Shown here in pieces: positions 4,465-13,137 of a stretch of DNA of 64,000 nucleotides (the stretch's first letter is position 1; the number at the start of each line of letters is the position of its first letter). A program made the position numbers and the translations under genes. The stretch lies in NCBI GenBank assembly GCA_902462295.1, contig CABQAZ010000001.1:12215-76214 (forward strand), read 5' to 3'. This DNA comes from an uncultured Clostridium sp. Lineage in GTDB: Bacteria; Bacillota; Clostridia; TANB77; CAG-508. The notes under the pieces are model-generated. The model ran no database searches. It had not been told where the DNA came from and worked only from the letters and a program-made list of their open reading frames with translations.

Positions 4465-5712
4465 TTATATTTCTAAATTCCATTCTTTTTCTCTTTCTTC
4501 GTGTTTAAGTTGTTTTTCTGGATTAATAAAAGTGTGAGTTTCATCTTCGAATTTTTTTACTAATTCTTTTGATTCTCCAATACCAAATTTGTGACAAATC
4601 CAAACTATAAATTTATCAACTGTTTCATAAAATTTATCAATAATTTCGTGTAAATGGTTATTTTCTTTTTCCAATGACCTAATTTTATTTTTGTATTTAT
4701 ATTCAATATCAAATTCTTTATTTTTAAATTCATCCTCTAAATCTCTTTTTCTATTATTAAATTCCATATCAAGAGAATTATTCTTTTTCTTATATTCATG
4801 TTCTAAATGTTCTACAGTATTGTGTAATTCTTTATTATCAGCAAGTATTTTATCTCTTTCCTTTTGGTATTTTTCAGCCTCATTAATAACTTTAGACTGT
4901 TTAGATAATTCCTTATGCAATGAAAGATTATCTTTGTATAATTCTTTAATTAACTCATCTTTAGGTTTTATAATTTCTTCTAGTATTTTTTCATCTCTTT
5001 TTAATGAAAATTTACTAATATCGGTTATCTCAGGAACATCTGGTAATTCTAATTTTATTTCATTCAAAACCTTTTTAGTATTTTCATAATTAGTAATTTG
5101 TTTATATTCTTCAACAGTATAATGTTTTCTGTGAGTATCTTCTACAAACATACCTCTTTCTAAATCAAAGCCTTTTGATTTTACATGATTAAAGTAGGCA
5201 TCTTGTAATTTTCTGTAACTATCTCGACCTTTCCAAAAATCTCTTGCACAAATTTTATCAACATTGTTACCTTCTTTATCTTTTGTGTGAACAACAGGAA
5301 CAAGCATTAAGTGCATATGTGGTGCTCCTTCATCTAAATGCACAACTGCTGATATTATATTTTTTTCTCCTAGACTTTTATAATTGCAGATAAATTTATA
5401 ACATTCATCAAAATATCGTTTTGTTTTTTTTTCTCCAATTTTGTCAAAAAATACTTGGTCAGAAGTAAACATCATTTGACACATTATTATACTGTTACTA
5501 CGAAGATGTCCTTGTACATTATTTTCTTTTAAATACTTATCAAATTCTTTTGTATATGTTAGCTCATTTTTCTTAATGTAATAATTCAAATGTGTTTTTG
5601 TTGGATCAATATCTTTATTAGTATGATTTTTTGCTTTTCTATCATTGTGAGTTCCTTTTCCGTTTATTTCTGCTCGTGTTAATTTTTCATTTCTTACGAT
5701 AGCGTAACTCAT
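4465..5712 (-). CDS. mob: MobV-family (Mob_Pre / MobM-like) relaxase
   Basis: MSYAIVRNEKLTRAEINGKGTHNDRK...HLDEGAPHMHLMLVPV matches the N-terminal relaxase motifs of pMV158 MobM-type proteins. The C-terminus is a coiled-coil. The probable start is the internal ATG at 5712 (RBS GAAGGAGGTG) rather than the track start at 5772. Confidence 0.8.
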   Translation of the reverse strand: MSYAIVRNEKLTRAEINGKGTHNDRKAKNHTNKDIDPTKTHLNYYIKKNELTYTKEFDKYLKENNVQGHLRSNSIIMCQMMFTSDQVFFDKIGEKKTKRYFDECYKFICNYKSLGEKNIISAVVHLDEGAPHMHLMLVPVVHTKDKEGNNVDKICARDFWKGRDSYRKLQDAYFNHVKSKGFDLERGMFVEDTHRKHYTVEEYKQITNYENTKKVLNEIKLELPDVPEITDISKFSLKRDEKILEEIIKPKDELIKELYKDNLSLHKELSKQSKVINEAEKYQKERDKILADNKELHNTVEHLEHEYKKKNNSLDMEFNNRKRDLEDEFKNKEFDIEYKYKNKIRSLEKENNHLHEIIDKFYETVDKFIVWICHKFGIGESKELVKKFEDETHTFINPEKQLKHEEREKEWNLEI

Positions 5713-5754
5713 ATCTCCATGCACCTCCTTCTTCGCTTGAGATATTGTTTCAAT

Positions 5755-5792
5755 GTCTAACACACTAGACAAACAAAGTTTGTCTGTGTGGC
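5755..5792 (-). promoter_or_regulatory. Candidate oriT: inverted repeats with a GTGTG/TT nick-like motif
   Basis: Lies immediately upstream of mob. The minus strand reads gacaaacTTTgtttgtc then gtctaGTGTGttagac. TAGTGTGTTA resembles the pMV158 MobM nick region (TAGTGTG/TTA) within a hairpin loop. Confidence 0.5.
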
Positions 5793-9608: not shown

Positions 9609-10162
9609 AGATAAAAAGGTAGGTATTGTTAAATATAAAGAAATACATTAAATTTAAAATATAATTAAGGAGTGAATATAATATGGATATAGTTCAATAA
9701 AAGAGTTAATAGATAGAAATACAGTTGAAACGTAAATTAAATAAATTTAGTGTAGAAGATAAAACAATATTAGAGGATGTAAGAGATTGCTTGTATTATA
9801 AAGATAATTTAAAAGTTGGACAAGTTACAGTTACACACCTAGCAATAGCAAATATGAAATTATGTACCAAATTTGATAGTGCTCAATATTGAAGATTTTA
9901 AAATTAGGAAATATGGAAGAATAAGATTAAGATATTTAAAAGAAAACAAAAAAAAGCATAATATATGGTAATGCTTATGGAAAACAAACTACAAGAGCAT
10001 TTAATAAAGAGAGATAAAACAGCAAATGAAAGGTTTGAACTGCTAATGAAACAATTTGCAGAAAGAGAGTTGATAGTAGAAGAATGTATTAAGAACTAAA
10101 AATAAAGAATTGGGGATAGGGAAAATTACTTTTATTTTAAGAATTTAGAATTAATTAATTAA

Positions 10163-10190
10163 AGGAGCAGATCTTACTGCTCCTTTGATA
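10163..10190. terminator. Bidirectional hairpin terminator
   Basis: aaaggagcag atcttact gctccttt, downstream of the minus-strand operon. Confidence 0.5.
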
Positions 10191-10214
10191 ATATTTCTAA
10201 AAATATTTAATATG

Positions 10215-10661
10215 CTATTTTTGGAAAAAGTTTTTAATTTTATCAAAAATTCTTTTAAACAGAGGTTTCTTATATTCTATTAAAGCAACTGAATATTCTT
10301 GTTTTTCATCAGTTGAAATACTAACAGTTTTATTTTTAAAAATATTATCATAATTATATTTTTTGTTTCTTAAATCTTCTTCCACAATGTCTTTATATTT
10401 GTCATATCGAACAATTCTTTTCCTTTCTTCAGCTGAAATAAAATATGATATATATATTTCTTTTAAAAGTTCTTTAGTTTCTTCAAGTAATTGTTGATTC
10501 TGTAAGCTAATATTTGGATTAATATTTACTACGTAATTATCATTTTTATTTTCTTTCAAAAAATTGATAAACTTTTTAGAAATTTTATTTTGTTCATTAT
10601 ATGGTAGACACTTAATTATAAAAAGTGTTTCGGCGAAAGCATTATTATATGTTAAGTTCAT
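10215..10661 (-). CDS. Hypothetical protein (148 aa)
   Basis: Overlaps the upstream 536-aa gene by 17 nt, suggesting translational coupling. No family recognised. Confidence 0.5.
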   Translation of the reverse strand: MNLTYNNAFAETLFIIKCLPYNEQNKISKKFINFLKENKNDNYVVNINPNISLQNQQLLEETKELLKEIYISYFISAEERKRIVRYDKYKDIVEEDLRNKKYNYDNIFKNKTVSISTDEKQEYSVALIEYKKPLFKRIFDKIKNFFQK

Positions 10662-12246
10662 TTTCCGTACCTCCCAACTCTTTATTTGTAAGAATACCTT
10701 TTATTTTTTGTAACAAATTACCTTTTGATTTAATTTGAGCGAATGCACCTATATCTGTTGAACTATAAGATCCTTCTATAGCTTGATTTTCAGTATTTAA
10801 TTCTGGATTGAACTTTCTTTTTTCTATCTCATAAGCATCATATATTTGTATTGGAAGTCCTGTAGTGTTGCTATATTCTTCAGCTTGCATTAATAATTCT
10901 TCTGACAATTCTGCAGTATCTTTAACAACCATAATATAAGCAGGTTCTATTTGAGTCCAATCTACTAAAGTTTCATTTGTTCCACCATTTTCAATATGTT
11001 CCAATACCTCTGGAATTGCTGCTGAATTTTTTTCAAAAGAAAATCTATCTAGTGCGTTGTTATATCCTATATTTATTGTTTTTATAGCATTTATAGGAAC
11101 GGCTGAAAAAACTATAGCAATTTTTCTAGCTAAATGTGGGTGTAAAGCACCAATTTTACTAATAGAACATGATAAATTAGTATGAGGTGCTGTAATAACA
11201 TAATTAAAAGAACTATTTGTGTATCTATTTTTTAATGGAATTCTTGAACTTAAATCAAATGGATTTTTTCTTGAATTCATATAATCCGACAGCATATCAC
11301 TTGCTTCTTCTGAATCAAGTTCAGGGTCAAACTTTCTATCATATTTAGACTCTATAAAAGCTTTTATACACTCAACTACAACACTATCAAAAAATTCATC
11401 TTGTGTAATATCACTTTTTTCCCCAAAGTCTGGAATAAAATGTAATAATAATAAGCTTTCATCATTAGGATTATCAATTATTTTCTTGTTAGGGGGGTTA
11501 AGTCTAGATAAAAGTATAGATCTATTTATTTTTTCATAATCAGAATAACATTGTTTTAGCAAAGGTAACATACTATTATTTTTTTGTTTCAGCATTGTAT
11601 GTATTGAATTTAATTGTTGAATAAGTCTATCTAATTGTTGAATTTCGTCTGGTATTTTTGTAAAATCTCTTAAAGATAGTATTCTTTCTTTTAGTAAATC
11701 ATAATTTTCAATATAAGGAATTGAATCTTGTCCAAATGTTTCGTCCAAACTTATTCTTTGTTTTATTTTTTCCAATTCTGTCTTAGGAAGATATATATCT
11801 GTTCTAGCACTAAATATTCCTAATCTAATTTCTTTTGATATTTTATCTTGATTTTTATCTAGTTCTTCCGTTCCATAGCAATTAATCAATTTTGCTACTT
11901 CTAATAATATTATGGTTCTAGCTCTTTCTTCAAAATGATTTAAATTCCCAGTTCTTTGAAATATATTTTCAGATACCATTGGTATATTAACACTTTTTTC
12001 AAATTCTTTATCATGTCTTATTGTGCGCTTTTCTTCAATCATTATCTTATCTTTTAATTCATCAGTACTTAAAACCATTTTTAATAAATAATCTTTGTAT
12101 TTTTGATATATTGACTGTATATCTTCTTTAGTGCCTTTAAATTCAATAATAGTATCTAAATAATCATTATATTCATCTAAACATACTTGCTGAAAATTAT
12201 CTATTTGTATAATATTACCAAAATTATCAAATTCTTTTTCATACAT
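10645..12246 (-). CDS. Hypothetical large protein (about 533 aa), no recognisable motif
   Basis: Long ORF. The likely start MYEKEF at 12246 has GGAGAA 8 nt upstream. No Walker, HD or nuclease motifs seen. Confidence 0.55.
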   Translation of the reverse strand: MYEKEFDNFGNIIQIDNFQQVCLDEYNDYLDTIIEFKGTKEDIQSIYQKYKDYLLKMVLSTDELKDKIMIEEKRTIRHDKEFEKSVNIPMVSENIFQRTGNLNHFEERARTIILLEVAKLINCYGTEELDKNQDKISKEIRLGIFSARTDIYLPKTELEKIKQRISLDETFGQDSIPYIENYDLLKERILSLRDFTKIPDEIQQLDRLIQQLNSIHTMLKQKNNSMLPLLKQCYSDYEKINRSILLSRLNPPNKKIIDNPNDESLLLLHFIPDFGEKSDITQDEFFDSVVVECIKAFIESKYDRKFDPELDSEEASDMLSDYMNSRKNPFDLSSRIPLKNRYTNSSFNYVITAPHTNLSCSISKIGALHPHLARKIAIVFSAVPINAIKTINIGYNNALDRFSFEKNSAAIPEVLEHIENGGTNETLVDWTQIEPAYIMVVKDTAELSEELLMQAEEYSNTTGLPIQIYDAYEIEKRKFNPELNTENQAIEGSYSSTDIGAFAQIKSKGNLLQKIKGILTNKELGGTENELNI

Positions 12247-12267
12247 AGTTATCATTCTCCAAATTTT

Positions 12268-12431
12268 TAAATTTCAATACATTCTTCTAAATTGTTATTC
12301 CACCAATATTTTGAATGAACTTTTGAAATTTGAGTTCCTGCTACTAATCTTTTTTCTAATAATGTATTTATTATTTTATTAGCTATTTCTTCCTTATTAC
12401 AAAGTGTTGTTACAATTATATATTTATTCAT
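12268..12431 (-). pseudogene. cutA: CutA1-like (divalent-cation tolerance / PII-like) N-terminal half, truncated
   Basis: Sub-threshold 54-aa ORF MNKYIIVTTLCNKEEIANKIINTLLEKRLVAGTQISKVHSKYWWNNNLEECIEI. It aligns with the first half of CutA ([51 protein letters not shown]) and stops where the conserved C-terminal half should begin. Confidence 0.45.
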
Positions 12432-12432
12432 A

Positions 12433-12861
12433 TTATTTTTCACTCCTTAATTTAGATATTAGGATTTCAGCATTTTTATAAGTTGTAGAATTTTCTCCAT
12501 ATCTATTTTTAATGTCATCAAGTCTTTTGTCATAGCCGACATCATTACCATATTTATCAATTTGCATATCTGCTTTATTTAATATTTCTAAAAATAATGA
12601 TTTATATTCTGTATTTATGTCTCCGTGATAATAAATCTCTTTCCAATATTTATAATTGTTTCTATTTAATATTTCTCCACCTATATGTCCATGATTAGAA
12701 TTATCTCCATATTCATAACCAATATCGTGATTAAACCCTAATAAAAACAAATCTTGTAATTCATTATCATTCAAGTTGTATTCTTTTCCTATTTCAATTA
12801 TTTTTTTTGCAACAGCTAACGAATGTCTTAATCTATCATTATCTATCATTTTAAACTCCAT
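12433..12861 (-). CDS. HD-domain protein (small HD phosphohydrolase)
   Basis: LRHSLAVAKK...GFNHDIGYEY...NHGHIGGEIL carries the H...HD signature. Confidence 0.6.
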   Translation of the reverse strand: MEFKMIDNDRLRHSLAVAKKIIEIGKEYNLNDNELQDLFLLGFNHDIGYEYGDNSNHGHIGGEILNRNNYKYWKEIYYHGDINTEYKSLFLEILNKADMQIDKYGNDVGYDKRLDDIKNRYGENSTTYKNAEILISKLRSEK

Positions 12862-13137
12862 AATTATATTTATTTTAAAAATTTATCTAAAGTAAATTCT
12901 TTGTTATATTCATCAACTATTACATAGTTAGATTCGTTTTTTTTCATTATAATGGATTATTTCACACCTCATAAAAAATTTTATAAAATTTTAGAAAACT
13001 AGTTAACTTTTATAAAAATATATTATGTATGCGATATATAGTTTTTATGACTTATCTATAATAGTTATATAATTTTTTAGAAATATTGTCAATAGATGGT
13101 AACTTTTAAAAATATACAAACGAAAGGAGGATTGATT

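What the first reader, a model, noticed from the sequence alone, without database searches (positions are those of the whole stretch)
10215..12950. Uncharacterized minus-strand operon (HD protein, truncated CutA, 536-aa protein, 148-aa protein) in a degraded AT-rich islet
Four tightly packed genes lie between two hairpin terminators: a small HD phosphohydrolase, a 54-aa ORF that is an unmistakable N-terminal half of CutA (PII-like fold) ending exactly where the conserved C-terminal half should start, then a 536-aa protein and a translationally coupled 148-aa protein. The last two have no motifs I can recognise.

The flanks (9620..10200 and 12870..13100) contain only gene fragments. The geometry suggests a two-gene cassette that inserted into, or replaced part of, a cutA locus. 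Tightly coupled large plus small pairs of unknown proteins next to nucleotide-handling domains (HD, PII-like) are reminiscent of defence or toxin systems, but nothing here is diagnostic.
Basis: partly seen in the sequence, partly recalled or inferred. Interest (0 to 1): 0.55.

Follow-up and report, generated by a model that had tools for sequence, protein, structure and literature searches.

The report
Mobile ART-like enzyme plus promiscuous small partner
A rare two-gene cassette has replaced the back half of a cutA gene in an uncultured gut Clostridium: it encodes a probable ADP-ribosyltransferase-like enzyme and a small protein from a common, undescribed family that pairs with dozens of unrelated enzyme-like proteins, much like a toxin with a universal antidote.

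Summary
The four minus-strand genes are real: a small HD protein, the N-terminal half of CutA, a 533/536-aa protein and an overlapping 148-aa protein. They are not one functional unit. HD plus cutA is a resident locus. In another species the same pair occurs without the cassette, and cutA there keeps both halves but is frameshifted. The mobile unit is the two-gene cassette (about 10053-12279). It recurs at 41-97% identity in unrelated housekeeping contexts. It is very rare: 71 hits among 1.84 billion representatives, and 6 of 185,579 species genomes.

The small protein belongs to an unannotated family with at least 435 metagenome loci. About 80% of its members are tightly coupled, in either order, to large partners from 32 unrelated clusters (Fic, transglutaminase-like, HExxH, unknown).

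Best reading: an ART-type toxin or effector with a PanA-like promiscuous neutraliser or adaptor. All of this is inferred; nothing was shown biochemically.

The parts
12433..12861 (-). Small HD-domain phosphohydrolase-like gene (142 aa; 138 aa from ATG 12849). Resident gene, not part of the cassette.
   Evidence: Pfam HD 23.1 bits vs cut-off 22. More than 1,100 relatives in gut Clostridia. Found with cutA but without the cassette in L115-L119.
12267..12431 (-). cutA remnant: a 54-aa N-terminal half of CutA (a pseudogene stump).
   Evidence: Pfam CutA1 positions 1-50/99, E 2.5e-10. No C-terminal half in the window. 54 aa in most sister strains and 43 aa in L024. L115 keeps both halves, frameshifted.
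12263..12289 (.). Arm 2 of a 27-nt inverted repeat, at the cutA/cassette junction. The homology breakpoint with L115 is at 12280.
   Evidence: the repeat finder I2, 85% complementary. Reached in 3 of 60 shuffles. blastn breakpoint.
10645..12255 (-). Large cassette protein (536 aa from the first ATG; probably 533 aa from ATG 12246). Helical N-terminal half plus an alpha/beta C-terminal domain and a disordered tail.
   Evidence: AF2 pLDDT 88.5. 33 homologs and 71 in the exhaustive search. No Pfam, NCBIfam, PADLOC, PHROGs or PDB sequence hits.
10801..11493 (-). ART-like C-terminal domain (residues ~255-485). Candidate catalytic residues are H272, S362 and E428.
10215..10661 (-). Small cassette protein (148 aa, pI 9.2). 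It has an N-terminal helical domain, a KYNxDNIFKN motif and a cationic amphipathic C-terminal helix. Its start overlaps the large gene by 17 nt.
   Evidence: Family of at least 157 clusters and at least 435 metagenome loci. Tightly coupled partners in 32 unrelated clusters.
10158..10189 (.). G+C-rich 13-bp-stem hairpin: the intrinsic terminator closing the operon.
   Evidence: Terminator scan. It lies inside the block shared by all sister strains.
10077..10103 (.). Arm 1 of the 27-nt inverted repeat, at the 3' end of the tnpV remnant. Sister-strain homology ends at 10053.
9861..10099 (+). Decayed tnpV (frameshift, internal stop, cut at about residue 92 of 120). A relic of a Mob_Pre/TnpV-type mobilisable element.
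   Evidence: tblastn with TnpV proteins of L013/L015/L022/L023, E 1e-10 to 1e-11. Intact RepA_N/Mob_Pre/TnpV/KilA-N genes sit at this position in sister strains.

Best explanation
The real unit is a horizontally mobile two-gene cassette (about 10053-12279).

The large protein is a divergent member of the ADP-ribosyltransferase fold. It probably uses NAD+ to modify a cellular or invader target through an H272 / S362 / E428 active site. Its 250-residue helical N-terminal half would be a regulatory or target-binding module.

The small basic protein is made in step with it through overlapping, coupled translation. It binds the large protein and keeps it inactive, or otherwise controls it. It belongs to a common gut-Clostridia family that has been re-used as the partner of dozens of unrelated enzyme-like proteins. 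That is the behaviour of a hyperpromiscuous antitoxin such as PanA.

The cassette landed in a resident HD-cutA operon and deleted the 3' half of cutA. It sits next to a mobilisable-element hotspot beside polC and is now read from the HD promoter.

Shown: gene structure, cassette boundaries, rarity, conserved pairing, partner diversity, fold resemblance and invariant residues.
Inferred: enzyme activity, toxicity, neutralisation by the small protein, and any defence or addiction role.
For: - Pair conserved with overlap in five other genomes, each with different housekeeping neighbours.
- Rare and patchy: 33 hits, 71 of 1.84 billion representatives, 6 of 185,579 species.
- Cassette boundaries from blastn. 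Mobile-element genes or relics lie alongside.
- HD-cutA exists without the cassette.
- High-confidence models.
- Only L188, H272 and E428 are invariant across the family, and S362 is nearly so. They sit on strands at positions expected for ART beta1, beta2 and beta5.
- Small-protein family: at least 435 loci. 65 of 81 interior genes have a tight large partner in either order. Those partners fall into 32 unrelated clusters, including Fic, transglutaminase-like and HExxH proteins.
- PanA shows the same pattern, including Fic/Doc partners and variable gene order (PMC8832971).
Against: - Foldseek found nothing significant against PDB (best E 0.35; DarT E 0.59).
- No profile hit to any Pfam ART family even at E<=10, nor to PDB sequences.
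- I could not superpose residues, so placing H/S/E in an NAD pocket is inferred from strand positions only.
- The closest structure, CteC, is R-S-E class, but this family has H on beta1.
- The small protein is basic and the large one acidic, the reverse of many type II pairs.
- Nothing shows toxicity.
- No PADLOC or PHROGs hit.
- 16 small-family genes lack a tight partner.
Confidence: 0.5

Rival explanations
1. Effector plus adaptor or chaperone, not toxin plus antitoxin. The small protein is a common handle that delivers or activates diverse large effectors, for example by taking them to the membrane through its cationic amphipathic C-terminal helix, or to an export or trigger machinery. It does not neutralise them.
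For: - One small family serves 32 unrelated partner clusters. Conserved adaptors for polymorphic effectors also look like this (my own knowledge of T6SS and T7SS adaptors).
- The conserved C-terminal helix EYKESIFKKILNKIKNIFKK is amphipathic, with pI 10 for that segment.
- Many partners end in polar tails with a [LIVMF]G[GRE] motif: 7 of 32 partner clusters vs 5 of 133 controls. This could be a docking or processing signal.
Against: - No secretion-system genes, signal peptides, or LXG/Rhs-type N-termini were seen next to the pairs examined.
- No separate immunity gene is present in the two-gene cassette.
- The tail motif was noticed first and tested afterwards.
Confidence: 0.2
2. An ordinary non-conflict protein pair, such as a lineage-specific structural or sporulation-linked complex. 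On this reading the ART resemblance is a chance fold similarity.
For: - Neighbours are usually housekeeping or sporulation genes: rpsO, rho, yabP/yabQ, SpoU, gpr, rpsT.
- Foldseek and all sequence-profile searches are negative.
- No hit in defence or phage libraries.
Against: - A housekeeping pair would not be confined to 6 of 185,579 species, nor sit in a different context in each.
- Sibling partners include Fic and HExxH proteins.
Confidence: 0.15
3. Roles reversed. The small cationic protein is the harmful, membrane-active component. The diverse large proteins are its sensors or inhibitors.
For: - The small protein is basic, with an antimicrobial-peptide-like amphipathic C-terminus.
- It is the constant element of the system, while the large proteins vary as sensors often do.
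Against: - The large partners carry catalytic-type signatures typical of toxins: Fic, HExxH, Cys-His, and the H/S/E of the ART-like domain.
- The small protein has no predicted transmembrane segment (sequence).
Confidence: 0.1
4. One reading: HD, the half-CutA (PII-like), the 536-aa and the 148-aa proteins work together as one four-gene nucleotide-signalling defence operon.
For: - The four genes are co-directional, with gaps of 20 nt or less, and are closed by one terminator.
- The arrangement is kept across many metagenome samples of this species.
Against: - The association is limited to one species at about 98% DNA identity, so it is recent.
- The cassette occurs without HD or CutA in all other genomes.
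- HD-cutA occurs without the cassette.
- The CutA piece is half a fold and has decayed further in L024.
Confidence: 0.05

Closest known systems
CteC and other bacterial mono-ADP-ribosyltransferases (ART superfamily: CteC, DarT, Tpt1/KptA, SopF, OspC3)
   Different: No sequence-profile similarity to any ART family, and Foldseek is not significant. The H-S-E combination fits neither the R-S-E class of CteC nor the classical H-Y-E class. A ~50-residue two-helix insertion lies between beta1 and the next strands. The target is unknown.
PanA/Panacea (DUF4065) hyperpromiscuous antitoxin and PanAT two-gene systems (PMC8832971; NetFlax network PMC10440598)
   Same: One small-partner domain is found in bicistronic loci with dozens of unrelated partner domains, including Fic/Doc. 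Gene order varies, and the loci are mostly chromosomal.
   Different: The small protein has no DUF4065 or any other Pfam match. It is confined to uncultured gut Clostridia/Bacillota. Partners are large (200-850 aa). Neutralisation has not been tested.
DarTG and CmdTAC (ART toxin systems that act as toxin-antitoxin or anti-phage modules; CmdTAC: PMC11618068)
   Different: There is no macrodomain antitoxin (DarG) and no SecB-like chaperone (CmdC). There is no DUF4433 match and no PADLOC hit. No phage link was found.
Tn4451-type mobilisable elements of clostridia (tnpV, Mob/Pre relaxase, large serine recombinase; gene content recalled from my own knowledge)
   Same: A tnpV relic abuts the cassette, and a Mob_Pre gene lies 4 kb away. 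Sister strains carry intact RepA_N/Mob_Pre/TnpV/KilA-N genes at the same spot. A sibling pair (318 aa plus small protein) sits inside such an element in L013.
   Different: No recombinase gene lies next to the cassette in the window. Cassette copies in other species have no such neighbours and no shared terminal repeats.

Membership tests
ADP-ribosyltransferase (ART) superfamily | Split beta-sheet ART fold | tested here: inconclusive
ADP-ribosyltransferase (ART) superfamily | Conserved catalytic triad on beta1 / beta2 / beta5 (H-Y-[EDQ], H-H-h or R-[ST]-E; PMC10810742) | tested here: inconclusive
   H272 and E428 are invariant and S362 near-invariant in 34 sequences down to 18% identity. They lie on strands 268-273, 360-367 and 429-432. 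The H-S-E mix is atypical. I could not verify residue-level superposition on an NAD site.
ADP-ribosyltransferase (ART) superfamily | Sequence-profile match to a described ART family | tested here: not met
   No ART family among Pfam hits at E<=10 for 34 members. No PDB sequence hits with profiles A1, A3 or A6.
ADP-ribosyltransferase (ART) superfamily | NAD+ binding and ADP-ribosyl transfer | not testable with these tools
   Needs biochemistry.
PanAT (Panacea) toxin-antitoxin systems | Antitoxin carries the DUF4065/Panacea domain | tested here: not met
   No Pfam hit for the 148-aa protein or for its relatives.
PanAT (Panacea) toxin-antitoxin systems | The same small-partner domain in conserved two-gene loci with many unrelated partner domains, in either order | tested here: met
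   65 of 81 interior small genes have a partner within 60 nt (41 upstream, 29 downstream). The 68 partners form 32 clusters. The concept is described.
PanAT (Panacea) toxin-antitoxin systems | The partner is toxic and the small protein neutralises it by direct binding | not testable with these tools
   Needs expression and rescue assays and pull-downs.
DarTG | DarT (DUF4433) toxin with a macrodomain DarG antitoxin | tested here: not met
   No DUF4433 or macro domain in either protein. No PADLOC hit for the large protein.
CutA1 | Complete ~100-aa CutA1 domain | tested here: not met
   Only profile positions 1-50 of 99 are present. NCBIfam scored 36 bits against a cut-off of 120. The C-terminal half is absent from the window.
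Known anti-phage defence systems (PADLOC-DB 2.0) | Match to a defence-system protein model | tested here: not met
   Large protein, HD and CutA': no hits. The small protein has a weak TIR-TM hit (E 5e-4) that only 3 of 32 family members reproduce.
Tn4451-like mobilisable element | tnpV, Mob/Pre relaxase and a large serine recombinase in one element | tested here: inconclusive
   A tnpV relic is adjacent and Mob_Pre is at 4465-5772. No recombinase is adjacent. Intact versions occur in sister strains and in L013.

The most novel reading that the evidence does not exclude
The ~150-aa small protein defines a new, Clostridia-wide universal partner module. It is unrelated to PanA. It couples at least 30 unrelated effector enzymes (ART-like, Fic, HExxH, Cys-His and many novel folds) to one common control, docking or delivery mechanism. 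The large partners' [LIVMF]G[GRE] tails and the small protein's amphipathic helix may be part of that mechanism. This would be a previously unrecognised modular conflict system of the gut microbiome, and the 536-aa protein would found a new H-S-E clade of ADP-ribosyltransferases.
Probability: 0.25. Interest if true: 0.8.

Novelty: new variant of a known kind. Interest (0 to 1): 0.6.

Why it matters
If the reading holds, two things follow. First, it adds a new sequence family, with an unusual H-S-E signature, to the ADP-ribosyltransferase fold. Second, and more usefully, it flags a common but unannotated small-protein family in gut Clostridia that behaves like a second Panacea-type hyperpromiscuous partner. 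That family could serve as a guide for finding dozens of uncharacterised toxin or effector domains in uncultured gut bacteria by guilt by association. The PanA authors explicitly ask how many more such domains exist (PMC8832971). The locus is also a clean example of a cassette capturing a resident operon's promoter while destroying cutA.

Tried and rejected
- **Second 536-aa + 146-aa pair at 49838-51875.** It looked like a paralog but is unrelated: a serine recombinase and the 3' part of a split deacetylase gene.
- **Foldseek against PDB.** Nothing significant. afdb50 was not available.
- **Profile searches against PDB sequences with A1, A3, A6 and A2.** Nothing usable.
- **Pfam at E<=10 on 34 family members.** No ART families.
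- **hhalign of the large-protein profile against the partners of distant small-protein relatives.** No similarity. An A1 HMM against 53 upstream partners hit only itself.
- **PADLOC 'TIR-TM' hit of the small protein.** Only 3 of 32 members reproduce it; rejected as compositional.
- **Phage or plasmid origin.** No tblastn hits for either protein. There were no IMG/VR hits for A1 or A2, and one for the distant small-protein set A5.
- **Universal terminal repeats of the cassette.** Cassette copies in other species have none.
- **Upstream terminator.** Not found.
- **Known RNA elements.** None in Rfam.
- **Search for a displaced CutA C-terminal half in the window.** Negative.
- **A literature search for Tn4451/TnpV/TnpZ.** Found nothing in the held library.
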